Source: an uncultured Gammaproteobacteria bacterium (lineage in GTDB: Bacteria > Patescibacteriota > Patescibacteriia > UBA9934). Taken from it: a stretch of 64,000 bases of DNA. Where the stretch lies: NCBI GenBank assembly GCA_964613815.1, contig CAZTKG010000001.1:8895-72894 (forward strand), in the 5' to 3' direction. A program made the translations under genes and the position numbers. Position 1 is the first letter of the stretch, and every line of letters starts with the position of its first letter. The notes below the pieces were generated by a model. That model was not told where the DNA came from. It ran no database searches and was given only the letters and a program-made list of their open reading frames with translations. Shown here piece by piece: positions 6,320-60,747 of the stretch.

Positions 6320-6338
6320 TGGAGTTGTGAGGCTTCTT

Positions 6339-6450
6339 CCCATCCTGAGGAGGGGGGATTTCGCCCCCGACGGAAGGATCTCACGGCAGGGCTGTGCCGC
6401 GCGGAGAGGGATCCTTCCGTCCGTCGGCTACGCTCCCTCCTCAGGATGGG
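6339..6450. repeat. about 110 bp nested palindrome (CCCATCCTGAGGAGG...GACGGAAGGATC...GATCCTTCCGTC...CCTCCTCAGGATGGG), left copy
   Basis: The outer 15 bp arms are perfect inverted repeats and the inner 12 bp arms are also inverted repeats. It sits immediately after the murJ stop. Confidence 0.7.
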
Positions 6451-6508
6451 AGATTAGAAGATATACGCTTTTTATATGGGAGGTGATGGCGTTATTGGGG
6501 TTTATATT

Positions 6509-6775
6509 ATGAGCAACCGGCGGAATACGGTTGTTTATGTTGGGTGCACTCATGACTTGATTCGGCGAGTTTATGAGCATCGTTTAAAGGCGGTAGATGG
6601 GTTTACGAAGAAATATAATTTGACGAAATTGGTTTATTATAAGCCTTTTGGTTGTCATGATTATGCGCGGGAATGGGAAATTGAGTTGAAGAAGTGGCGG
6701 AGAGCGAAGAAGGATAAGTTGATAGAAGAGGAGAATCCGACTTGGAGGGATTTGTGGGATGAGATTGTTGAGTGA
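6509..6775 (+). CDS. GIY-YIG nuclease family protein
   Basis: MSNRRNTVVYVGCTHDLIRRVYEHR...YYKPF...EWEIELKKW: canonical GIY-YIG motif layout. An upstream in-frame ATG at 6476 is possible. Confidence 0.8.
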   Translation: MSNRRNTVVYVGCTHDLIRRVYEHRLKAVDGFTKKYNLTKLVYYKPFGCHDYAREWEIELKKWRRAKKDKLIEEENPTWRDLWDEIVE

Positions 6776-6794
6776 TGTGCGATGTCTTCTGTAG

Positions 6795-6906
6795 CCATCC
6801 TGAGGAGGGAGCATCAGCGATGGACGGAAGGATCTTGTGTTGTGGTGGTGCTGCGCGGGATGGGATCCTTCCGTTCGTCGGCTACGCTCTCCTCTGCTCA
6901 GGATGG
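6795..6906. repeat. about 110 bp nested palindrome, right copy (same orientation as the left copy)
   Basis: CCATCCTGAGGAGG...GACGGAAGGATC...GGATCCTTCCGT...GTCGGCTACGC...CTCAGGATGG. It shares the asymmetric GTCGGCTACGC segment with the left copy, so the two are direct repeats. Confidence 0.7.
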
Positions 6907-15925: not shown

Positions 15926-16032
15926 TTCCCATCTCGACCTTGTGGAGAGATCTGATTGTGATAAAACTGCGAGATCTCTCCGTAAGGTCCCCACTTTGCA
16001 GAATGCTTCGTTAGGGGCAGGCGAGATGGGAG
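15926..16032. repeat. RPE-like palindromic element, copy 1 (long form)
   Basis: TTCCCATCTCGACC..GGAGAGATCT..AGATCTCTCC..AAGGTCCCCACTTTGCAGAATGCTTCGTTAGGGG..GAGATGGGAG. It shares its long right arm with copy 6. Confidence 0.8.
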
Positions 16033-20074: not shown

Positions 20075-20158
20075 TTCCCATCTCGACCGAACGAAGTGAG
20101 TGGAGAGATCTGATTGTGGCAGAGCTGCGAGATCTCTCCGCGTTGGTCGAGATGGGAA
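20075..20158. repeat. RPE-like palindromic element, copy 2
   Basis: CCCATCTCGACC..GGAGAGATCT-(18 nt)-AGATCTCTCC..GGTCGAGATGGGAA. It fills the entire GT2/ligase intergenic region. Confidence 0.8.
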
Positions 20159-20166
20159 GTGGATAT

Positions 20167-21849
20167 ATGCTAGATCAATTTTTTGGAACATATACGTGGT
20201 GGACGGTTGGAGGCATTGTTGGGGTGTTTTTGTTGGCGCTTTTTGGGAAGATCGCGGGTTTGTCGGCGCTTGTTTTGATGTTGCTTGGAGTTTTGATTGC
20301 GTATGCTGCGTGGAATTCATTGGAAGTTGGGATGTTTGTCGCGTTTGTGGAGATGTTTGTTGGGGGGCATGGGCGATTGCTAGCTATGGAGGTGCTTGGG
20401 TTTTCGATGAGTTTGCGGATGGTGATTTTTGGCGTTGTGATGGGGGTGTTTTTGGTGCGGTTTTTGCAAGGTCGATTTAAGATCAATATTTTGCCTTGGC
20501 GGGACGGGCCTTGGATGCTTTTGATGGCTGCGGTGGTTTTGGGGGTTGTTGTGGGAGGGTTTGATCATGATGGAGGCGCGGTATTTGATGATGCGAATGG
20601 GTTTTTGGTTGTTGGCTACTTACTTCCTGTGATTGCAATTCGGTGGACGGCTGCATGGCGGCATCGGATGTTGCAGGCTTGTATGGGGGCGTATGTTTGG
20701 GTGACGGGTTTGACGCTTGGACTTGGATATTTGTTTACGCATTTACCAGGGAAGGCGCTTGATTTTGTATATAAGTTTGTGCGAGATGGGCGGATTGCGG
20801 AGGTGACGTTGCAGACGGTCGGGCATTTTGAAGGGGGGAGGTTTTATGAAGTTTTGATTGCTATGCTGGGGGATGGAGGGTATTGGTTTCGGGTGTTTTT
20901 GCCGAATCAGTTTACGATTTTGATTGGGATGTTTTTGCTTCTCGGTGCGGTGGTTTGGAGTAAGAAAGGGCAGTTGTCGGGACGTGTGATGCTGGTTGTT
21001 GGTGGTTTGATTGGGAGTGGGGCTGCGGCTCTTTTGCTTGGGGGATCGCGGAGTTTTTTGGTGGGAGTTTTGGCTGGTGGGGTTTGTTTGGTGGTTTTGA
21101 TGGTTCTTTCCCATCTCGACCGACCGCAGGGAGTGGAGAGATCTCTCCGCGTTGGTCGAGATGGGAGGATGGATGGTGTAATGAAGATTTTGATGATTGG
21201 TGTTGGGTCGTGTTTGGTTGCGTTCATGACGGCTTGGATTGTGGTGGAATTGCCGGTTCCTGCACGGCCTGATTTGAGTGATGCGTATTTTTACAGTACT
21301 TCTGCCGATGAGGGGCGGGCGAGTGCGGTGGCAAGTCGGTGGGATTTGCTTGATCCGATGATGGATGAGATTAAGGGCGCGCCGATGTTGGGATCTGGTT
21401 TTGGAGAAGAGATTACGTATCAGAGTAGCGATCCACGTGTGATTGCAGAGACTGGGGGCGGAGAGTGGACGACGTATCGGTTTGAGTGGGGGTATTTGGA
21501 TATTTGGTTGAAGATGGGAGTCTTGGGGGTGTTGGCGTTTGGGTGGTATTTGATGTCGATTTTTGTGGGCGTGCGACGGTTTGGTAGAGATCGAATATGG
21601 CTTGGGGTGGCTTTGATGTCGGCTGTTGTTGCGCTTTTTGGGACGCATATATTTTCGCCGTATTTGAATCACCCGATTGGGATTGGGTTTATGGTGTTTG
21701 TGTTGGTGTTTTTTGATGGTAGCGATGATGTCCGGCGAGGGAGGGTTGTTGATGAGGTTTTGGAAAAAATGGATTACGTTCGTGTTTCGGTTGGAGCCAC
21801 TTTTGGGCCGGCCGGACAAAAAGTGGTTCGGGAAGGTTTGGAAAAATAA
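20167..21849 (+). CDS. O-antigen ligase/polymerase-like (Wzy_C domain) membrane protein carrying an in-frame repeat-element insertion
   Basis: LLLGGSRSFLVGVLAGGV (the SR-containing helix) ... [element-encoded SHLDRPQGVERSLRVGRDGRMDG] ... MLGSGFGEEITY...EWGYLDIWLKMGVLGVL (GxGxG and ligase C-terminal motif). Start at MLDQFF; the 20116 start lies in repeat copy 2. Confidence 0.65.
   Translation: MLDQFFGTYTWWTVGGIVGVFLLALFGKIAGLSALVLMLLGVLIAYAAWNSLEVGMFVAFVEMFVGGHGRLLAMEVLGFSMSLRMVIFGVVMGVFLVRFLQGRFKINILPWRDGPWMLLMAAVVLGVVVGGFDHDGGAVFDDANGFLVVGYLLPVIAIRWTAAWRHRMLQACMGAYVWVTGLTLGLGYLFTHLPGKALDFVYKFVRDGRIAEVTLQTVGHFEGGRFYEVLIAMLGDGGYWFRVFLPNQFTILIGMFLLLGAVVWSKKGQLSGRVMLVVGGLIGSGAAALLLGGSRSFLVGVLAGGVCLVVLMVLSHLDRPQGVERSLRVGRDGRMDGVMKILMIGVGSCLVAFMTAWIVVELPVPARPDLSDAYFYSTSADEGRASAVASRWDLLDPMMDEIKGAPMLGSGFGEEITYQSSDPRVIAETGGGEWTTYRFEWGYLDIWLKMGVLGVLAFGWYLMSIFVGVRRFGRDRIWLGVALMSAVVALFGTHIFSPYLNHPIGIGFMVFVLVFFDGSDDVRRGRVVDEVLEKMDYVRVSVGATFGPAGQKVVREGLEK
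21107..21168. repeat. RPE-like palindromic element, copy 3 (short form, inside the ligase-like CDS)
   Basis: CCCATCTCGACC GACCGCAGGGAGT GGAGAGATCTCTCC GCGTT GGTCGAGATGGG: perfect 12 bp terminal inverted repeats and a central 14 bp palindrome. It is read through without a stop. Confidence 0.8.
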
Positions 21850-22933: not shown

Positions 22934-24791
22934 ATGTCGGAGGAAAATGTGCAGGAGCTGGAGCATCAGGACAAGAAGAGTTTTCTTGATTATACGCGCG
23001 GGATTCGTGCGACGTGGACGCTGATTCAGTGGCTTGGGGAGGCGTTCGTGTCTCGTCGAGCGTTCAAGTACATGACGCGGATGTGGATCTGGGTGATGGT
23101 CGCTCATGCTGTGGGTCTTTTGTATCCGTGGTTTATGGGGCTTGCGATCGAGGAGCTGGCGCATGGGACGCAGGGTTCGTTCCGGTTTCGTGTGTGGGGG
23201 ATGTGCGGGCTGATGGCCTGGGCGACGCTCATGCATTGGCGTCGATGGCACAACGTCGAGATGATGATCGTGGAGAACTTTCGGACGCTTGATCGAGAGT
23301 CTCTTGCGATGTTCTTGCGGAAGTCGCTCGGCTTGCACTTGCAGGAGGATTCAAAGCTTTCGTATGGGAATATGGAGAAGGGGTATAATCGAATCGATAA
23401 GATTCAGAGCTCTCTTCTGTTCGTTGCGATTGATGCGTTTGTGTCGCTTGTACTCATCTCGATCATGATGCTTGTCGTCAGTCCGGTGACGTTTGCGATT
23501 ATGGGGGGGTGTCGCTGTGGTCAATGCATTCATTTCGCTTGTGCTCAATCATCGCATGATTGTGCATGGGGAGGTGATTGATGTGGAGTGGCGCGCCTTG
23601 AATCGATGGCGGTTGCAGTTGATTCGGAATGTGCAGCGGGTGATTACGGTTGGGCGTGTAGAAGAGGTGATCGCGGAGTTTGATCGGCGGTTTATGGAGA
23701 TCGCGCCCAAGGATCACAAGCTGTGGATTCCGTATATGCGTGATAGTAATCTCCGTTCCCTTGTGGGTGTGGTTGGGATTGCGGCGCTTGGGCTCTATGT
23801 CGAGCATGCGTATTACGGTGGCACGATGTCGCTTGCGGTTGCGGTGCCTGTGTTTGCGTGGGCGTCGATGATTACGCAGCTTATCCGTGTGCTGAGTGGC
23901 GTGGAGCGAGAGGTCAACTGGTGTACGCCTGCGGCTCGGTCGTTTATGGAGGCGCTTACGACGGAAGATCCTGTTCAGGACGTTGAAGATCCGCATGTGT
24001 TGCCCTCGGATGAGCTTGCTCGGATTGAGTTTCGCAATGTGAGTCATTCTTATGGTGCTGATCTTGTGCTTCAGAACGTTTCCTTTGTGCTTGAGCCTGG
24101 CAAGACGGTGGCGTTGATTGGGCGAAGTGGGAGCGGGAAGAGTACGCTTGGGAATTTACTCTTGCGTGCGATGGATCCGACTTCTGGTTCGATTCTGGTC
24201 AATGGCGTTGATTTGCGTGAAGTTCAGTATTCGTCTTGGATTCGATTGCTTGGGGTGATTCTGCAGAAGCCTCTGGTGATGGATGGGACGATTCGAGACA
24301 ATTTGTTGTTCGGGATCTTTGAGGCAGATCGTTCGCGGTTTACCGATGAGGTTCTGTGGCAGCTGTTGCGTGATCTTGGGATCGACTTTGGGAAGCGGTT
24401 GAAGGACGGCCTCGACACGCGCGTGGGTCACAACGGCTTGAAGCTTTCGGGGGGAGAGCAGCAGCGGCTTATGATTGCCGCGGCGGTGATTCGTGATCCC
24501 AAGGTGATGCTGATCGATGAGGCGACGAGTTCGCTTGATGCGGTTGCGCAGCGGCAGGTTCAAGAAGGGATTGGTCGGGTGCTTTCTCGCGGCATGAGCG
24601 CTGTGATGATTGCACATCGGCTTTCGACGATTCTTGGGGCTGATATGTTCGTGGTGCTTCGGCCTGTGGATGAGCTTGGTCCTGGCGAGAGTCAGATTGA
24701 GACGATTGCGTATTCGGTCGAGGATTTGCACGCTCGGTCCTTGATTTTCCGTGAGCTTGCTGAGCTTGAGGGACTTCAGATTGGAGGGTGA
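22934..24791 (+). CDS. ABC exporter, fused permease/ATP-binding (MsbA-like), reading frame broken by +1 at a G7 tract (23503..23509)
   Basis: ORFs 22934..23581 and 23493..24791 are one gene. FAIMGG | VAVVNAFISLVL becomes continuous if the tract is G6. Walker A GRSGSGKST, signature LSGGEQQR, Walker B MLIDEATSSLD. Confidence 0.7.
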
Positions 24792-24805: not shown

Positions 24806-24832
24806 TCCGGTGATTGTGCCGGAGATTTTTTG
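24806..24832 (+). terminator. intrinsic terminator after the ABC exporter
   Basis: CTCCGG-TGATTGTG-CCGGAG followed by ATTTTTT. Confidence 0.6.
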
Positions 24833-24874
24833 CTTGATACAAAAGTGGTCCGTACGGACCACTTTTGTATCAAG
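24833..24874. repeat. 42 bp perfect palindrome CTTGATACAAAAGTGGTCCGTACGGACCACTTTTGTATCAAG (copy 1); a half-copy lies at 24955..24985
   Basis: Identical to the palindrome at 34854..34897. Both copies lie just 3' of an ABC exporter gene and are followed about 100 bp later by a degenerate right-arm copy. Confidence 0.75.
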
Positions 24875-24995
24875 GAGAGATTTTTGGAATGATGCGCGTT
24901 GTCTTTAGTTTGTGTTTTTTTGGAATGGTTGTTTGTATTGTCTTGTTTTGATTTTGGTCCGTACGGATCATTTATGTATCAAGGTGGATGATTAG

Positions 24996-26134: not shown

Positions 26135-26620
26135 TTAGAGATAAGCTTCTTCGGGGATGTCGCCTTTTGTGATTTTTTTGGCTTTTTCGATGAAGAGGAT
26201 GCCGTCTAGGTGGTCGATTTCGTGTTGGAAGACGATGGAGAGGAGTTTGTCGGCTTTGATGCGGACGGGGTCACCGTTTCGATCTTTGGCTTTGATTTTG
26301 CAGGATTTGTGGCGTTCGACAATGCCCCAGACGCCTGGGATGGAGAGGCAGCCCTCTTGGAAGTCGATCTTCGTGTTTGAGGTGGAGATGATTTTGGGGT
26401 TGATGAAGGCTTGTGGGCCTTTTTTGGTTTCGGCGATGATGATGCGGACGTTTTCTCCGATTTGTGGAGCGGCGATACCGATGCCATTTTCTGCCGCCAT
26501 GGTTTCGATCATGTTGTCGATGAGGGTTTGGATTTTTTCTGACTGAATATCGGCATCAGGTACGGGGGCTGATGGGGTGTTAAGGGTTTTGTTTGGGTGG
26601 GTGAGGACGTTGAGTTTCAT
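26135..26620 (-). CDS. def: peptide deformylase
   Basis: GIGIAAPQIG, EGCLSIPG, HEIDHLDG: the three PDF motifs. Confidence 0.9.
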   Translation of the reverse strand: MKLNVLTHPNKTLNTPSAPVPDADIQSEKIQTLIDNMIETMAAENGIGIAAPQIGENVRIIIAETKKGPQAFINPKIISTSNTKIDFQEGCLSIPGVWGIVERHKSCKIKAKDRNGDPVRIKADKLLSIVFQHEIDHLDGILFIEKAKKITKGDIPEEAYL

Positions 26621-28379
26621 AGGTTGTTAGGGTGGTTTCGATGATGCAGGCGTCGGGGAGGGTTTTTAAGAGAGGGGTTATGGAAGGGGTTTGTAATGGA
26701 TGCGTTCTGATGGTGATTTTGTTGTCTTGTTGTTCTGTTTCTGCTTGAGGGGGGAGGGCGCCAATGAAGTCTGGAGGGACTTGATGGGTTTTTGGGGTGA
26801 TGGTGATTTCATCAAATGCAGGTGGGAGGTGGTAGTCGTTTGCGAGGTCGGTTTGGGATTTGATGAAGGATTCTGCGTTTAGGGTTGGGGTGACGATTTC
26901 TGGGATCCAGGTTTGGACGATGTGCGTTGCGTTTTGTTGTTTTGCGATGTAGTGGGAGCGGTAGAGTGTTCGTGCCATTCTTTGTGTTGCGTCTTGGTCA
27001 GCCATGGAAAGTTCTTGGTCGATGCTGATGTGGGCGATGAGGTTGAACGTTTGAGGAAAGAATGGTTTCCAGATTTGGTTGAAGAAGTATTCTGTGGCGA
27101 TGTTGATGTCGGCGTCTGGGTTGCCTGGATGCTGTTTGTCGATAATTTTGATGGAAGCTTTTGGAAACGCTTTTTGGATGATGGATTTGAGGCGGGCGTT
27201 TCCGATGCCTTTTTGTTTCCAGTCCATGGATCTGCAGTTTGGGCAGGAGGAGGCTTTTTGTGGAAGTTTGCAGAGGGTGCAGAATGGAGCGTTGTCTTGG
27301 TTTTTGAGGATCGATTGGCAGGTTTTGCAGCGGAGAATTTGTTTACAGGTGCCGCATTGGAAGCGTCTTGAAGTACCTTTTCGATTGAATGAAAGTAGCA
27401 CGGATTTAGGGGTTTGTAAAGCGTCAGTGATGGCATCGATGAGGCTAGAGGAGAGGAGTGGGAAGGGGGATTGCTGTTCTTCTGCTTTGAGGTCGATGAT
27501 GGTCAGGGTGGGGTGATTATCGAAAACGGATGCTTGGTAGGGAAGGGGGTCTGTTTGGAGGAGGGTGGCGTTATGCTGTTTGGTGAGAAGTTTTGCGGCG
27601 GTGCGGGCGTCGAATCTTGGGTTTCGTTTGGTGTTTTTGTGGGCTTCGTCGGAGGCGCATTCGATAATGACAAATGAAAGGTTGTGAGCTGGGAGAAGAG
27701 CGCCAACTTTTGTGGCGATGAGTGTTGTGCAAGTGCCAGTGCGCCAGGCTTTTTGGATGGTTTGACGGTGGGGTTTTGACGTTTTGCCGTGGATAGCGAG
27801 AGCGTTTGGGAATGAGAGGGATTTGGCGAGATTGTCGACATCTCTTCCTGTGGGAAGGAGGATGAGGGTTTGGTTTGGGGCGTTTTTGGCGAGGATGGAA
27901 AAAAGCGTCCAGGCGGTTTCTGGAGAAGATTGGATGGTGAGGGATTTGGTGGTTTTGATGGTTGGGAGGAGGGATTTGATGCGGTCGGCTGCGTGTTTTG
28001 AGATGGAGGTCTGGGGGTTTGTTGGATTTTCCCATCTCGACCTTGTGGAGAGATCTCTCGACTGCGCTCGAGATGGGGAAGAAGGGAATATGAAAAAGAG
28101 GAGACTTGGGACGGATTGGCCGATGGAAGTAGCAATAGATTCAAGGCGGGTGATGTCGGCTGAGGTTATTAGATTTTTGATCGCGATGCCGGAGATCGGT
28201 TTGGCGTTTGGAACTTCTGCGGTTTGGTTGATTTTGGCGACGATACCGGTTGTCTTGAAACCTCGGATGGTGATGTAGACGAGGTCGCCGATATTAGTGT
28301 TTACTCCTGCTGGAATTTGGTAATCAAAAACACCGAACCTCCTTGGCATTCGGCGGATTGGGTAGACCTGGGCAATCAT
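26580..28379 (-). CDS. priA: primosomal protein N' (PriA helicase) carrying an in-frame repeat-element insertion near residues 95-115
   Basis: N-terminal MIAQVYPIRRMPRRFGVFDYQIP...GDLVYITIRG. Cys4-Cys4 zinc fingers CGTCKQILRCKTCQS...CTLCK...CPNCRS. Helicase motifs are present. The element encodes FPSSPSRAQSRDLSTRSRWE. Confidence 0.85.
   Translation of the reverse strand: MIAQVYPIRRMPRRFGVFDYQIPAGVNTNIGDLVYITIRGFKTTGIVAKINQTAEVPNAKPISGIAIKNLITSADITRLESIATSIGQSVPSLLFFIFPSSPSRAQSRDLSTRSRWENPTNPQTSISKHAADRIKSLLPTIKTTKSLTIQSSPETAWTLFSILAKNAPNQTLILLPTGRDVDNLAKSLSFPNALAIHGKTSKPHRQTIQKAWRTGTCTTLIATKVGALLPAHNLSFVIIECASDEAHKNTKRNPRFDARTAAKLLTKQHNATLLQTDPLPYQASVFDNHPTLTIIDLKAEEQQSPFPLLSSSLIDAITDALQTPKSVLLSFNRKGTSRRFQCGTCKQILRCKTCQSILKNQDNAPFCTLCKLPQKASSCPNCRSMDWKQKGIGNARLKSIIQKAFPKASIKIIDKQHPGNPDADINIATEYFFNQIWKPFFPQTFNLIAHISIDQELSMADQDATQRMARTLYRSHYIAKQQNATHIVQTWIPEIVTPTLNAESFIKSQTDLANDYHLPPAFDEITITPKTHQVPPDFIGALPPQAETEQQDNKITIRTHPLQTPSITPLLKTLPDACIIETTLTTYETQRPHPPKQNP
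28029..28079. repeat. RPE-like palindromic element, copy 4 (short or truncated form, inside the priA CDS)
   Basis: TTCCCATCTCGACC TTGT GGAGAGATCTCTC GACTGCGC TCGAGATGGGG. Confidence 0.75.
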
Positions 28380-33036: not shown

Positions 33037-33074
33037 GTTAGAATTAGTGCATTGCTCGATTATTGATTTTTTAC

Positions 33075-34835
33075 ATGTTTGGAGATTTTGGAAAGTATAA
33101 AAAAGTTTATTCGCATCTTTTTGATACGTATGGGAGGTCATGGCAGGTTTGTTTGTCGTTTATTCTTCAGATTATCAGTCGGGCTTGTAAGTTTATTTTT
33201 CTTCCGATTGCAATTAGTTTGATTATTGCGAATTTATCGGTTCAGGATTTTGATGGAGCGTATCGGTCTGTGTATTTGTTTGTTGCGTTTTCTTTGACGC
33301 TTGGGATTTTGACGCCAATGGTTCAATATCTTGGGATGAAGGGGGAGAATCCTGTGTATCAGGAATTGACAGGTTCTTATTTTTCCCGGTTGATTACATC
33401 TGATATTGAATATTTGAATTCTCATTTGGCTGGCTACCTCACGGCTGCGACTCGTCATTATGTTGATGCTGGTGTGACGCTTGTTCGGGTGTTTCGCGAT
33501 CGGTTTATAAATACGATTTTGGGGATTTTATTGCCTCTTGTGGTGATTTTTTGGGTAGACATTGTTTTGGGGTTTGTTGCATTAGGGTTGAGTATTGTGC
33601 AAGCGGTTTATTTGGTTTGGGCTTCTCATGCTATTTCGCCATATCGAACAATGTCTCGAGAGCTTTATAAGAAAAATTCTGGAAGAATTGCTGATGTTGT
33701 TTCGAATATTCTCGCTGTGCGTTCTTTTGCTATGGAAGAGCATTACGCGAACCGTGCTCGGAGAGATGCATCTCGTGAGGCGGATGTTTTTACTAAACGT
33801 TATGGTGTTCAGGCTAAGTTGATTGGTGTTCGAACGGGTATTACAGTCATTTTTTTCATGATTCTTCTTTGGCTTGTTGTGGAGCGAATGAGCGGAGGAG
33901 CACTTGATATTGCTGAGGCGGTGCTTATTGTGACGTATACGGGAACTATTTTGACGGGCATTCAGAGCCTTTCTAGTAATTTGGATGAGCATGATGATCT
34001 TGTTGATAAGATTGTGCCCGCGTTTGAGATTTTGGATCGTCAGAATAAGATTTGTGATCTAGATGAGCCGGCGACGTTTGATCATGTGGGAGGAGAGATT
34101 GTTTTTGACCATATTTCGTTTTCATACTATGAGGGGAAGAAGGGGCAAAATGTGTTTGATGGGTTTTCTTTGCGGATTCCGGAAGGGCAGAAGCTTGGGG
34201 TTGTTGGGCTTAGTGGGGCGGGGAAGAGTACGATTACGAAGTTGCTTTTGCGATTTAATGATGTAGATCGTGGACGTGTTTTGATTGATGGGGTTGATAT
34301 TCGAGATGTTCGTCAGCAGGATTTGCGGCGACAGATTTCGTATGTGCCGCAGGAGCCGTTGTTATTTCATGCATCAATTAAGGACAATGTTCTTTTGTCA
34401 GATCCTGACGCTTCTGTGCGTGCATTAAATAAGGCGCTTCGATCGGCGCATGCGTTTGATTTTATTCAGCGGCTTCCGGATGGGGTGGATAGTATTGTTG
34501 GTGAGCGTGGGGTGAAGTTAAGTGGTGGGCAGAAGCAGCGCGTTGCTATTGCTCGGGCGGTGCTTCAGAGTGCGCCTATTATAATTTTGGATGAGGCGAC
34601 AAGCGCGCTTGATAGTGAGAGTGAGCAGATTATTAAGGATTCATTTAGTGAGATATTGAAAGGGAAGACGGCGATTGTTGTTGCGCATCGTTTGAGTACG
34701 CTTTCTGATATGGATCGGATTATTGTGATTGAGGATGGAAAGATTGCAGAGGATGGGACGCATGCGTCGCTACTGAGAAAGCGAGGTGTTTATGCGAATA
34801 TGTGGAAGCGGCAGCTGCGGCACGAGGAAGGTTGA
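33075..34835 (+). CDS. ABC exporter, fused permease/ATP-binding
   Basis: Walker A GLSGAGKST, LSGGQKQR, IIILDEATSALD, VVAHRLST, with an N-terminal 6-TM domain. Confidence 0.85.
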   Translation: MFGDFGKYKKVYSHLFDTYGRSWQVCLSFILQIISRACKFIFLPIAISLIIANLSVQDFDGAYRSVYLFVAFSLTLGILTPMVQYLGMKGENPVYQELTGSYFSRLITSDIEYLNSHLAGYLTAATRHYVDAGVTLVRVFRDRFINTILGILLPLVVIFWVDIVLGFVALGLSIVQAVYLVWASHAISPYRTMSRELYKKNSGRIADVVSNILAVRSFAMEEHYANRARRDASREADVFTKRYGVQAKLIGVRTGITVIFFMILLWLVVERMSGGALDIAEAVLIVTYTGTILTGIQSLSSNLDEHDDLVDKIVPAFEILDRQNKICDLDEPATFDHVGGEIVFDHISFSYYEGKKGQNVFDGFSLRIPEGQKLGVVGLSGAGKSTITKLLLRFNDVDRGRVLIDGVDIRDVRQQDLRRQISYVPQEPLLFHASIKDNVLLSDPDASVRALNKALRSAHAFDFIQRLPDGVDSIVGERGVKLSGGQKQRVAIARAVLQSAPIIILDEATSALDSESEQIIKDSFSEILKGKTAIVVAHRLSTLSDMDRIIVIEDGKIAEDGTHASLLRKRGVYANMWKRQLRHEEG

Positions 34836-34853
34836 TCGTTTGATGTTTCTTCT

Positions 34854-34897
34854 GCTTGATACAAAAGTGGTCCGTACGGACCACTTTTGTATCAAGC
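34854..34897. repeat. 42 bp perfect palindrome (copy 2, CTTGATACAAAAGTGGTCCGTACGGACCACTTTTGTATCAAG); a half-copy lies at 34980..35008
   Basis: Identical to 24833..24874. Confidence 0.75.
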
Positions 34898-35057
34898 AGG
34901 CATGGGGGTGTTTTTTTTGGAAATGATTGATGACTGCCAGTTTTGTCATTGTCTTTTCGATTCTGCCTGTATTTTTTTTGGTCCGTACGGACCATTTTTG
35001 TTACAAGGAGACGGGAGCATCATTTGGTTTAAATGGGGTGTGTTAAAATGGTGGCCT

Positions 35058-36897: not shown

Positions 36898-36972
36898 TTC
36901 CCATCTCGACCTTGTGGAGAGATCTCTGCGATGATCAAGAAGGAAGGATCTCTCCGCAAGGTTGAGATGGGA
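36898..36972. repeat. RPE-like palindromic element, copy 5
   Basis: TTCCCATCTCGACC TTGT GGAGAGATCTCT-(20 nt)-ATCTCTCC GCAAGG TTGAGATGGGAA. Confidence 0.8.
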
Positions 36973-37052
36973 AGGCGGAGGGTTTTTTGAATCAGAATAG
37001 CTTTTCGGTCTCGTTGGATTCGGCCTTCGCAGGACGTTATTTTAAGGGTGGG

Positions 37053-39698: not shown

Positions 39699-39830
39699 GT
39701 TGAATCGCTTCGCTCGTTGAATCACTCGCCTGCGGCATCGTTCGTTTAAAGCGTTGATTCCGGAATCAACGAGCGCAGCGATTCAACGAGTTTCGGCGAT
39801 TAGTCGAACGATTCAACGATTTAAACGTTA
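39699..39830. repeat. about 120 bp palindromic intergenic repeat, copy A (TCGTTGAATCACTCGCC...CGTTGATTCCGGAATCAACG...GATTCAACGATTTAAACGTT)
   Basis: Three copies: A 39699..39830, B 59109..59255, C 60629..60747. Contains the 20 bp perfect palindrome CGTTGATTCCGGAATCAACG. Each copy abuts the 5' end of a - strand gene. Confidence 0.8.
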
Positions 39831-59108: not shown

Positions 59109-59255
59109 GTCGTTGAATCACTCCCGGCGGGGCCGGGTTGTTCGTTTAAGGCGTTGATTTCGGAATGAACGAGCGGAGTCACGTCGTTCGCGAACGACGT
59201 GGCGGAGCGATTAAACGAGTTAGGGCGTTAGCCCACGATTCAACGACTTAAACGT
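59109..59255. repeat. about 120 bp palindromic intergenic repeat, copy B (with a 24 nt hairpin insertion)
   Basis: Aligns end-to-end with copies A and C. Confidence 0.8.
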
Positions 59256-59257
59256 TT

Positions 59258-59996: not shown

Positions 59997-60083
59997 GAGA
60001 TCCTCTTGATGAAAACGAAAAGAACGACATGCGGCGGATGATAGCGCAAAATGTCGTTCTTGTCAATGCTGGGTTGTCATCAT

Positions 60084-60190
60084 TCCCATCTCGAGCATCG
60101 TTGAGAGATCTGATGGGGGCAGGGCTGCAAGATCTCTCCACAAGGTCCCCACTTTGCAGAATGCTTCGTTAGGGGTAGGCGAGATGGGAG
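60084..60190. repeat. RPE-like palindromic element, copy 6 (long form)
   Basis: TTCCCATCTCGAGC..GAGAGATCT-(18 nt)-AGATCTCTCC..AAGGTCCCCACTTTGCAGAATGCTTCGTTAGGGG..GAGATGGGAG. Confidence 0.8.
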
Positions 60191-60618: not shown

Positions 60619-60628
60619 AGGCGGAGTT

Positions 60629-60745
60629 TAAATCGTTGAATCACTCGCCGACGGCATCGTTCGTTTAAGGCGTTGATTCCGGAATCAACGAGCGGAGCGA
60701 TTAAACGAGTTTGGGCGATTAGTCCACGATTCAACGATTTAAACG

Positions 60746-60747
<2 letters not shown>
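60629..60747. repeat. about 120 bp palindromic intergenic repeat, copy C (fills the atpD-atpC intercistronic gap)
   Basis: AATCGTTGAATCACTCGCCGACGGCATCGTTCGTTTAAGGCGTTGATTCCGGAATCAACGAGCGGAGCGATTAAACGAGTTTGGGCGATTAGTCCACGATTCAACGATTTAAACGTT. Confidence 0.8.

What the first reader, a model, noticed from the sequence alone, without database searches (positions are those of the whole stretch)
28029..28079. Same palindromic element inserted in-frame in priA (opposite orientation)
PriA (26580..28379, - strand) has an intact N-terminal 3'-DNA-binding domain, intact Cys-rich zinc fingers and an intact helicase core. About residues 95-115 (FPSSPSRAQSRDLSTRSRWE) are encoded by copy 4 of the element.

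The element lies in an essential replication-restart helicase, between the N-terminal DNA-binding module and the helicase domain. The reading frame is preserved. This suggests tolerance or selection for frame-neutral insertions.
Basis: partly seen in the sequence, partly recalled or inferred. Interest (0 to 1): 0.8.

Follow-up and report, generated by a model that had tools for sequence, protein, structure and literature searches.

The report
Nuclease-associated hairpin repeat read through inside priA
A 51-base palindromic repeat really does sit in frame inside the priA-like gene of this candidate-phylum bacterium, but it is a miniature copy of the hairpin repeats that accompany small Ssn-type GIY-YIG DNA nucleases, lodged in a floppy linker of a protein that has already lost its helicase motor motifs, so it is a new example of a known phenomenon, not a new kind of thing.

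Summary
Observation confirmed. Window 28029-28079 is one of six copies of a nested palindrome (TTCCCATCTCGA..GGAGAGATCT | AGATCTCTCC..TCGAGATGGGAA). It is exactly 17 codons of the 599-aa priA ORF (residues 101-117, SPSRAQSRDLSTRSRWE), and priA is identical in five assemblies.

Interpretation partly right. The segment lies in the linker between the 3'BD and the first RecA-like lobe, and it is the only internal low-confidence stretch of a good AlphaFold model.

Two corrections:
- The "helicase core" is not intact. The whole Uhrbacteria clade lacks the Walker A loop, the DExH box and the winged-helix domain.
- The loop is only 5-6 aa longer than in homologues, so the element replaced sequence rather than simply adding 17 aa.

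A second copy (21108-21167) is a clean private in-frame insertion in an O-antigen-ligase gene.

The family is explained by known biology. A 99-aa GIY-YIG gene in the window (6476-6775) is bracketed by related hairpins. A homologue elsewhere is flanked by the published Neisseria NTS consensus. Two others sit between the two arms of this very hairpin type. This matches the Ssn nuclease/hairpin system (Chenal 2025).

In-frame palindromes have a precedent in Rickettsia RPEs. Verdict: new member of a known kind, moderate interest.

The parts
28029..28079 (-). Copy 4 of the hairpin repeat. It is the short, loop-less form and is read through as PriA residues 101-117 (SPSRAQSRDLSTRSRWE).
   Evidence: DNA hairpin -13.5 kcal/mol, z -3.6; 51 nt, frame 0, no stop in any of six frames; GC skew -0.03 against a gene mean of -0.49
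26580..28379 (-). priA-like gene. It has a 3'BD, two RecA-like lobes, a Cys-rich region and a CTD, but no WH domain, no Walker A loop and no DExH box, so it is probably a pseudohelicase.
   Evidence: E 2e-119 to PriA 4NL4; best fold match 6DCR, the E. coli PriA WH-deletion protein
21108..21167 (+). Copy 3, 60 nt, in frame inside the O-antigen-ligase-family gene 20167..21849. It encodes SHLDRPQGVERSLRVGRDG(R).
   Evidence: (private 16-column insertion against 22 homologues)
15926..16032 (.). Copy 1. Long form with an 18-nt loop and an extra side hairpin, intergenic, 37 nt downstream of rpsI.
20075..20158 (.). Copy 2. Intergenic, 7 nt after the GT2 gene stop and 8 nt before the ligase ATG.
36898..36973 (.). 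Copy 5. Intergenic, 79 nt downstream of clpB. It folds as a 27-bp stem.
60083..60190 (.). Copy 6. Long form, intergenic, 14 nt downstream of atpC. Its loop shares GGCAGGGCTG with hairpin X1.
6476..6775 (+). 99-aa single-domain GIY-YIG nuclease gene of the Ssn type. It is the candidate cognate nuclease of the hairpins.
   Evidence: PF01541; Y10, Y21, G23, R31, E34, H35, E68 and N87 invariant across the family; a homologue, 55-57% identical, flanked by the exact NTS consensus
6337..6452 (.). Hairpin X1, immediately upstream of the GIY-YIG gene. It has the same outer ends (TTCCCATC...GATGGGAG) and a loop motif related to the priA-type family.
   Evidence: (D16, I2)
6795..6906 (.). Hairpin X2, immediately downstream of the GIY-YIG gene.
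   Evidence: (D16, I2)

Best explanation
The 51-bp segment is a gene-less miniature of a hairpin cassette that, in full form, carries a small Ssn-type GIY-YIG single-stranded-DNA nuclease gene between its arms. It consists of two inverted hairpin units joined head to head (CCCATCTCGA-spacer-GAGAGATCT and its complement), which is a REPIN/MITE-like relation to the full cassette.

A copy landed in priA, in the variable and unstructured loop that stands where canonical PriA has its winged-helix domain, and it replaced most of that loop.

This short form is a multiple of three in length and has no stop codon in any frame. It is therefore simply translated as a 17-residue Ser/Arg-rich disordered loop, and the protein tolerates it. 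It is a passenger filtered by purifying selection, not an adaptive module.

Shown:
- membership of the repeat family;
- preservation of the frame;
- location in a low-confidence linker;
- a clean in-frame insertion of a sister copy in another gene;
- physical association of this hairpin class with Ssn-like GIY-YIG genes in several genomes.

Inferred:
- that the nuclease recognises or mobilises these hairpins;
- that the segment is translated;
- that it is functionally neutral.
For: Family and statistics: six copies match TTCCCATCTCGA N7-16 GAGAGATCT, with essentially none expected by chance. All fold as long hairpins.

Foreignness: GC skew is -0.03 in the element against -0.49 for the gene.

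In-frame insertion precedent in the same genome: copy 3 is a private 16-column insertion in an O-antigen ligase compared with 22 homologues.

Location: AlphaFold model with mean pLDDT 87 and pTM 0.87. The only internal segment with pLDDT<50 is residues 102-115, and there is no secondary structure from 98 to 127. The fold matches PriA, best of all the WH-deletion protein 6DCR.

Tolerance: only the two genic copies are both 3n long and stop-free in all six frames.

Link to the nuclease:
- The window's 99-aa GIY-YIG gene is bracketed by hairpins X1 and X2, which share the TTCCCATC/GATGGGAG ends and a GGCAGGGCTG loop motif.
- In Uhrbacteria UBA12070 the orthologue (54.5% identical) lies between TTCCCATCTCGA..GAGAGATCT and AGATTTCTC..TCGAAATGGGAA.
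- In L062 a homologue lies between TGTCATTTCGA..GAGAAATCT and AGATTTCTC..TCGAAATGACA.
- In L056 a homologue, 55-57% identical, is flanked on both sides by CGTCATTCCCGCGAAGGCGGGAATCCAG, the published NTS consensus.
- These proteins form one tight family with mean column identity 68%.

Published biology: Ssn proteins are hairpin-specific ssDNA nucleases, and the NTS-ssnA-NTS layout is IS-like (PMC11893778). In-frame palindromic elements are documented in Rickettsia (PMC10969869).
Against: - No empty-site allele or close sister genome exists. The nearest PriA is 38% identical and all assemblies are clonal, so the insertion event is inferred, not observed.
- The loop is only 5-6 aa longer than in homologues, which requires a concomitant or later deletion of about 11 aa.
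- No target-site duplication or other transposition footprint is visible.
- Mobility of Ssn cassettes has not been demonstrated by anyone.
- The published SRM search pattern has 0 hits in the window. These hairpins carry CCCAT where canonical ones carry GTCAT, so recognition by the local nuclease is untested.
- Low pLDDT could partly reflect the absence of homologous sequence in the alignment rather than true disorder.
- There are only two intragenic copies, so no statistics on frame selection are possible.
Confidence: 0.7

Rival explanations
1. The hairpin in priA is kept because it works in cis at the DNA or RNA level. One possibility is an Ssn cleavage site that limits recombination or transformation across the priA-def-fmt locus, as NTS does in Neisseria. 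Another is an mRNA structure that modulates expression. On this reading the encoded peptide is incidental.
For: The outer 10-bp stem and the inner GAGAGATCTCTC palindrome are still perfect despite a very strong strand-biased mutation pressure. In Neisseria, NTS repeats flanking genes modulate transformation. The four intergenic copies all lie 7-79 nt downstream of gene ends.
Against: The priA copy is the weakest hairpin of the six: its spacers do not pair and it folds at -13.5 kcal/mol against -20 to -29 for four of the other five. Nothing distinguishes this locus. A recent insertion explains the intact stems equally well. NTS is rarely intragenic (2%).
Confidence: 0.12
2. The 17-residue Ser/Arg-rich loop has been co-opted as a functional part of this WH-less PriA, for example as a flexible basic DNA- or partner-binding tether that compensates for the missing winged-helix domain.
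For: It sits exactly where the WH domain is in canonical PriA. It adds 4 Arg in a protein otherwise depleted of G-rich codons.
Against: Homologues manage with unrelated loops of similar length and no conserved charge pattern. The other genic copy is read in a different frame and gives an unrelated peptide, so there is no conserved element-encoded module.
Confidence: 0.08
3. The segment is not an insertion at all. It is the ancestral linker that resembles the repeat by chance, or the repeat family was seeded from priA.
For: Loop length is within the range of homologues.
Against: 32/32 nt are identical to copy 5 and both arms match the family, with 0 chance matches expected. The same arms occur in other Uhrbacteria, Doudnabacteria and other genomes, next to GIY-YIG genes. 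GC skew is anomalous for the gene.
Confidence: 0.03
4. The segment is an assembly or sequencing artefact, or priA is a pseudogene.
For: Palindromes can cause mis-assembly.
Against: Identical sequence in five independent assemblies from different samples. The 599-aa ORF is open, with all PriA domains modelled confidently.
Confidence: 0.02

Closest known systems
Ssn (SsnA) GIY-YIG single-stranded-DNA nucleases with their NTS/SRM hairpin repeats (Chenal et al., Nat Commun 2025, PMC11893778)
   Same: A small (~95-100 aa) single-domain GIY-YIG gene is bracketed by hairpin repeats that are also scattered through the genome, mostly just outside genes. A homologue of the window's protein, 55-57% identical, is flanked by the exact NTS consensus. 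The hairpins are directional units with a conserved 5' tag.
   Different: These hairpins do not match the published SRM pattern (0 hits). Their stem sequences differ (TCGA/GAGAGATCT with CCCAT instead of GTCAT). They occur as inverted doublets that form one long hairpin, sometimes with the nuclease gene between the arms. Two of six copies in this window are intragenic and in frame, against 2% intragenic for NTS in N. meningitidis. No biochemistry exists for this pair.
Rickettsia palindromic elements (RPEs; Ogata et al. 2000, 2002, as reviewed in PMC10969869)
   Same: Palindromic repeats inserted in frame into unrelated housekeeping genes, translated with the host protein, and judged compatible with the host protein's fold and function.
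   Different: RPEs are about 100-150 bp and each family encodes a conserved peptide. Here the genic copies are 51-60 bp and are read in different frames, giving unrelated peptides. A link between RPEs and Ssn is not established: no paper connects them, although Rickettsia is listed among SRM-rich genomes.
REP/REPIN elements with RAYT (Y1/HUH) transposases
   Same: Short hairpin units are paired in inverted orientation (REPIN-like doublets), dispersed mostly downstream of genes, and associated with a single-copy nuclease gene flanked by the repeats.
   Different: The associated enzyme is GIY-YIG, not HUH/Y1. There is no GTAG or CGTC tag. No Y1 transposase was seen in the window ORFs tested.
Deinococcus radiodurans PriA pseudohelicase (PMC4504706)
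   Same: A PriA homologue that has lost the helicase ATPase motifs.
   Different: The Uhrbacteria clade additionally lacks the WH domain and has the whole P-loop deleted. This is unrelated to the repeat.

Membership tests
Ssn nuclease / SRM hairpin system | Single-domain GIY-YIG protein of about 94 aa (CDD cd10448) | tested here: inconclusive
   A 99-aa protein with PF01541 only. The GIY-YIG catalytic residues are invariant in the family alignment. CDD cd10448 assignment could not be run, and no N. meningitidis SsnA sequence was available for direct comparison. The nearest solved structure is UPF0213 BH0048, at only E 5e-4.
Ssn nuclease / SRM hairpin system | Gene flanked on both sides by hairpin repeats that also occur elsewhere in the genome | tested here: met
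   X1 (6337-6452) and X2 (6795-6906) bracket the gene. Related hairpins bracket homologues in L004, L056, L058, L059 and L062.
Ssn nuclease / SRM hairpin system | Repeats match the published SRM search pattern HGTCWYN(0-2)YYVSBRHN(0-5)WNVSBRGN(0-2)RNCYNB | tested here: not met
   0 matches in the window (0.2 expected by chance). The same script finds both NTS copies in L056, which serves as a positive control.
Ssn nuclease / SRM hairpin system | Close homologue of the nuclease demonstrably paired with canonical NTS | tested here: met
   P0154 (55-57% identical) is flanked by CGTCATTCCCGCGAAGGCGGGAATCCAG on both sides in inverted orientation.
Ssn nuclease / SRM hairpin system | Strand-specific ssDNA binding and cleavage next to the hairpin | not testable with these tools
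   Requires purified protein and oligonucleotides.
Protein-coding palindromic elements (RPE-like) | Dispersed palindromic repeat present inside ORFs with the frame preserved | tested here: met
   priA copy and O-antigen-ligase copy.
Protein-coding palindromic elements (RPE-like) | Absent from the same site in orthologues (true insertion) | tested here: inconclusive
   Met for the ligase copy: a 16-column private insertion. For priA the loop is repeat-derived but only 5-6 aa longer than in homologues that are at most 38% identical, and no close orthologue exists.
Protein-coding palindromic elements (RPE-like) | Element encodes a conserved peptide in its genic copies | tested here: not met
   The two genic copies are read in different frames: SPSRAQSRDLSTRSRWE and SHLDRPQGVERSLRVGRDGR.
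Protein-coding palindromic elements (RPE-like) | Insert maps to a surface or loop position compatible with the fold | tested here: met
   Residues 102-115 are the only internal stretch with pLDDT<50, between helices 90-97 and 128-143.
REP/REPIN-RAYT | Associated Y1 (HUH) transposase and a GTAG/CGTC tag | tested here: not met
   No Y1_Tnp hit among the 24 window ORFs scanned. The hairpin ends are TTCCCATC, with no GTAG or CGTC tag. The rest of the genome was not available.
Canonical PriA helicase | Walker A (GxGKT) and DExH motifs, and a WH domain | tested here: not met
   The P-loop is deleted and DEEH reads ECAS. The WH region is missing relative to 4NL4. The best fold match is the WH-deletion protein 6DCR.
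Rfam RNA families | Match to any curated covariance model | tested here: not met
   No hit on any copy in the window or in related loci.

The most novel reading that the evidence does not exclude
Ssn-type GIY-YIG cassettes (hairpin arm, nuclease gene, hairpin arm) are active mobile elements in candidate-phyla bacteria. Their gene-less miniatures would then be the source of RPE-like 'protein-coding palindromes'. On this reading the Ssn nuclease is the long-missing mobilisation machinery for in-frame palindromic insertions, and this lineage, with an altered CCCAT tag shared by two hairpin families, shows nuclease-hairpin co-evolution in progress.
Probability: 0.2. Interest if true: 0.7.

Novelty: new member of a known kind. 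Interest (0 to 1): 0.42.

Why it matters
It extends two known phenomena into the candidate phyla radiation and ties them together in one 64-kb window. The first is hairpin repeats paired with Ssn GIY-YIG ssDNA nucleases. The second is palindromic repeats that end up translated inside housekeeping proteins.

It gives a concrete, testable nuclease/hairpin pair (gene 6476-6775 against the TTCCCATCTCGA units). The recognition tag of this pair differs from the published motif, which is useful for the enzyme-specificity catalogue that the Ssn discoverers call for.

It also shows that the published SRM search pattern misses whole hairpin classes: the TCGA/GAGAAATCT class is seen here in Uhrbacteria, Doudnabacteria, Caldithrix and Pedobacter.

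For PriA itself the insert is probably inconsequential. The more notable fact is that the whole clade is a WH-less, Walker-less PriA.

Tried and rejected
- Rfam, gathering and permissive thresholds, on the window and eight related loci: nothing on the element.
- Sister genome with an empty site: the protein database has no PriA closer than 38% identity. Contigs carrying the identical neighbour gene def all carry the identical priA. Two further samples are clonal.
- Pattern scans of genome and metagenome collections did not recover the source genome. The metagenome scan returned mostly one conserved coding gene that matches the pattern by chance (L024-L048), as do L006, L009, L011 and L021 in the genome scan. 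L010, L013 and L023 look like chance matches.
- Extending the window: only about 9.5 kb upstream could be fetched, giving one half-copy. The downstream edge gene is not on record.
- Target-site duplications: none evident at any of the six copies.
- Intrinsic-terminator reading of the intergenic copies: no T-run follows them on the transcribed strand (inspection).
- Transposase partner (Y1/DDE): none among 24 ORFs scanned with Pfam.
- Full-text search for the arm sequences: only primers and shRNAs.
- A paper linking RPEs to GIY-YIG: none.
- Published SRM regex: 0 hits in the window and in most Ssn-homologue loci other than L056.
- The apparent conserved G.T/C.A mismatches in relatives are partly an ascertainment effect, because the scan required an exact left arm. 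In L004 the asymmetry is systematic, and this was left unexplained.
Full report
**1. What is in the sequence**

On the - strand, 28077..28031 reads CCCATCTCGAGCGCAGTCGAGAGATCTCTCCACAAGGTCGAGATGGG. With its flanking TT/AA the element spans 28029-28079.

It is a nested palindrome. The outer stem is CCCATCTCGA/TCGAGATGGG (10 bp, perfect). The centre is GAGAGATCTCTC, and the two spacers do not pair. It folds at -13.5 kcal/mol as DNA, with z = -3.6.

The window holds six copies of the family:

| Copy | Coordinates |
|---|---|
| 1 | 15926-16032 |
| 2 | 20075-20158 |
| 3 | 21108-21167 |
| 4 | 28029-28079 |
| 5 | 36898-36973 |
| 6 | 60083-60190 |

All six match TTCCCATCTCGA-N7-16-GAGAGATCT. The left 32 nt of the priA copy are identical to copy 5. 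The copies differ mainly in the central loop (0 to 21 nt) and in an extra side hairpin in copies 1 and 6.

The priA ORF (26580..28379, -) is open for 599 aa. The element begins at a codon boundary and is 51 nt long. It encodes residues 101-117, SPSRAQSRDLSTRSRWE. priA is identical in four other full-length assemblies and in the 1477-nt part held by a fifth, all from different samples, so an assembly artefact is excluded.

**2. The host protein**

The organism is a Candidatus Uhrbacteria (CPR) bacterium, named from the source labels on the nearest homologues. Its nearest PriA relatives are only 35-38% identical.

A profile of the clade aligns end to end with solved PriA (4NL4, E 2e-119). An AlphaFold model has mean pLDDT 87 and pTM 0.87. 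The best structural match is 6DCR, the engineered E. coli PriA lacking the winged-helix domain.

The 3'BD and eight Cys of the zinc-binding region are conserved. In all 13 clade members, however, the Walker A loop is deleted. This is an 18-column gap where canonical PriAs have GVTGSGKTE. The DEEH box reads ECAS, AGAT, ESAS and similar. This is a natural WH-less, ATPase-motif-less PriA, comparable to the D. radiodurans 'pseudohelicase' (PMC4504706).

**3. Where the element falls, and whether it is an insertion**

In the model the only internal stretch with pLDDT below 50 is residues 102-115. There is no secondary structure from 98 to 127, between helix 90-97 (the end of the 3'BD module) and helix 128-143 (the start of the first RecA-like lobe). 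One caveat is that low confidence also follows from the lack of homologous sequence there.

The DNA is compositionally foreign. GC skew is -0.03 in the element against -0.49 for the gene.

The loop between the two flanking helices is 28 aa here, against 22-29 aa (median 22.5) in the 12 homologues. The distance from S89 to Q170 is 80 aa against 70-77 in most. The net gain is therefore about 5-6 aa, not 17. Seventeen of the 28 loop residues are repeat-encoded, so the element replaced most of an existing variable loop, or deletions followed. No close orthologue with an empty site exists in any collection searched.

**4. Independent proof that the family enters genes in frame**

Copy 3 lies in the + strand gene 20167..21849, an O-antigen-ligase-family membrane protein with many homologues at 35-45% identity. 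The 22 that were aligned are 36-42% identical. In that alignment the query alone has a 16-column insertion exactly at the element (...VERSLRVGRDGRMDGVMKILM...).

The two genic copies are the only ones that are both a multiple of three in length (51 and 60 nt) and free of stop codons in all six frames. Each of the longer intergenic forms fails at least one of these tests.

The two copies are read in different frames and yield unrelated peptides, so there is no conserved element-encoded module. The other four copies are intergenic, 7-79 nt downstream of rpsI, a GT2 gene, clpB and atpC.

**5. What the family is**

Rfam has nothing. An exact-pattern scan of 185,579 species genomes found true palindromic relatives in the following:
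- several Uhrbacteria MAGs;
- another Patescibacteria MAG;
- a Doudnabacteria MAG;
- a MAG labelled Gammaproteobacteria;
- Pedobacter alluvionis;
- Anaerococcus, more loosely.

In most of these the arms read CCATTTCGA...GAGAAATCT / AGATTTCTC...TCGAAATGG.

The key came from Uhrbacteria UBA12070 (L004). There a 96-aa GIY-YIG gene lies between a left arm (TTCCCATCTCGA...GGAGAGAGATCT) and a right arm (AGATTTCTCC...TCGAAATGGGAA) of this very family.

The window itself has a 99-aa GIY-YIG gene (6476-6775), 54.5% identical to that one. Two long hairpins bracket it, X1 (6337-6452) and X2 (6795-6906). Both begin with the same ...CCATC tag, and X1 has the full TTCCCATC...GATGGGAG ends. X1's loop shares GGCAGGGCTG with copy 6.

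Homologues of this protein are very widespread, and many sit on roughly 1-kb contigs. I suspect repeat-induced assembly breaks, but did not test this.

| Locus | Source | Flanks of the GIY-YIG gene |
|---|---|---|
| L062 | unknown, GC 33% | Lies between TGTCATTTCGA-AGGAGTCCTCGACT-GAGAAATCT and AGATTTCTC-CCTGTGG-TCGAAATGACA |
| L058 | Caldithrix abyssi | Two paralogues embedded in GTCATTTCGA and GAGAAATCT...AGATTTCTC repeats |
| L059/L060 | Thermodesulfovibrio | Flanked by GTCACCCTGAGG/CTCAGAATGAC hairpins resembling X1 and X2 |
| L056 | Paceibacterota | A homologue, 55-57% identical, flanked on both sides in inverted orientation by CGTCATTCCCGCGAAGGCGGGAATCCAG |

The L056 flanking sequence is exactly the Neisseria Transformation Sequence consensus of Chenal et al. 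2025 (PMC11893778). That paper reports the following:
- This protein family (Ssn, ~94-aa single-domain GIY-YIG) cuts single-stranded DNA next to its cognate hairpin.
- Most ssn genes are flanked by such hairpins ('SRM').
- The NTS-ssnA-NTS layout looks like an insertion sequence.
- NTS is only 2% intragenic in N. meningitidis.

The nine GIY-YIG proteins I aligned form one tight family (68% mean column identity) with all catalytic residues invariant.

**6. Membership caveats**

The published degenerate SRM pattern has no hit in the window (0.2 expected). My implementation finds the two NTS copies in L056, which serves as a positive control.

The hairpins here carry CCCAT where canonical units carry GTCAT. 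The paper says this upstream tag is crucial for the nuclease. Both local hairpin families share the altered tag, which is what co-evolution with one local nuclease would predict, but this is inference. I could not run CDD (cd10448) or compare directly with N. meningitidis SsnA. Mobility of Ssn cassettes has not been shown by anyone.

**7. Mechanism proposed**

The short hairpins are gene-less derivatives of hairpin-arm/ssn/hairpin-arm cassettes, an IS/MITE- or RAYT/REPIN-like relation. They spread by a process involving single-stranded DNA and the nuclease, which is inferred.

Copies that land in genes survive only if they are 3n long, stop-free, and placed in tolerant loops. The priA copy sits in the variable linker that substitutes for the WH domain of a PriA that no longer needs to act as a motor, which is about as tolerant a site as the protein offers. 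It is read through as a disordered Ser/Arg-rich loop.

Rivals are listed with their tests:
- a cis function of the hairpin;
- co-option of the basic loop;
- an ancestral linker;
- an artefact.

**8. Comparison and verdict**

The phenomenon has a precedent in Rickettsia palindromic elements: in-frame, translated, and judged compatible with the host protein's fold (PMC10969869). Here the inserts are much shorter and lack a conserved peptide.

The repeat/nuclease pairing is the Ssn system in a new sequence class and a new phylum. This makes it a new member of a known kind. It is of moderate interest as a testable nuclease/hairpin pair and as a hint that Ssn hairpins can become protein-coding.

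Noticed in passing
window 1-64000: Extreme and uniform strand asymmetry. The + strand has G 20739 against C 10685 (mean GC skew about +0.32, locally up to +0.5) and T well above A. This holds whichever strand the genes are on. As a result - strand proteins such as PriA are rich in P/T/S/Q/K/N/H, and + strand proteins are rich in G/V/W/F/L.
   Followed up: partly
window 26580-28379 and homologues P0002-P0013: The whole Uhrbacteria PriA clade lacks the Walker A loop (18-column deletion), the DExH box and the winged-helix domain. It keeps the 3'BD, both RecA-like folds, the 8-Cys region and the CTD. The best fold match is the engineered E. coli WH-deletion PriA (6DCR).
   Followed up: yes
window 6337-6906: A 99-aa Ssn-like GIY-YIG gene (6476-6775) is bracketed by two ~112-116-nt hairpins, an IS-like cassette. 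This hairpin subtype (CCATCCTGAGGAGGG...GACGGAAGGATC) occurs nowhere else in the window.
   Followed up: yes
window 24828-24986, 34850-35010; L054 5090-5140: A different family of perfect 42-48-nt palindromes (CTTGATACAAAAGTGGTCCGTACGGACCACTTTTGTATCAAG). In the window they occur in pairs about 110 nt apart, each pair just downstream of one of two paralogous ABC-transporter genes (23493-24791 and 33063-34835). A single further copy lies upstream of the window.
   Followed up: no
window 39699-39829, 59140-59256, 60626-60747: A third hairpin family (GTTGAATC...CGAGCG[A/C/G]AGCGATT[C/A]AAC). It shares the CGAGCGNAGCGA core seen in the canonical GTCATTTCGAGCGAAGCGAGAAATC-type units. One copy lies between atpD and atpC, so atpC is flanked by hairpins of two families.
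   Followed up: no
L051 versus window ~23921: A scaffold from another sample (SCRA20-1 scaffold_112) is 99.97% identical to the window up to about window 23921, inside the ABC-transporter gene. It then diverges into different genes (SLT and others). This is a structural variant or recombination at the paralogous ABC genes.
   Followed up: no
L054 430-465 (about 9.1 kb upstream of the window start): A solo right half of the element (GGGAGATCTCTCCGCAAGGTCGAGATGGGAG) lies inside a called 163-aa hypothetical ORF.
   Followed up: no
L016 4590-4680 (MAG ERP019367_co1_56): An SRM-like hairpin doublet (TGTCATTCCGAGCGAGG...GGAATCTCT AAG AGATCCTTCGAC...GCTCAGGATGACA) supplies the last ~25 codons of the lgt ORF (...MSFRARPSDGRVEESLRDPSTPFGRSG*). 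This is a second genome in which such hairpins are part of a coding sequence, here as a C-terminal tail.
   Followed up: partly
L004 3250-4050 (Uhrbacteria UBA12070): In this genome the two arms are systematically unequal: the left arm is CCCATCTCGA/GAGAGATCT and the right arm is AGATTTCTC/TCGAAATGGG. This gives one C.A and one G.T mismatch per hairpin. In the source genome both stems are perfect Watson-Crick, with compensatory changes on both arms.
   Followed up: partly
L006, L009, L011, L021, and most of L024-L048: The search pattern also hits a highly conserved, non-palindromic ~150-nt coding segment in many freshwater and marine contigs of varied GC content. It is unrelated to the element and is a chance match to a conserved gene.
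   Followed up: no
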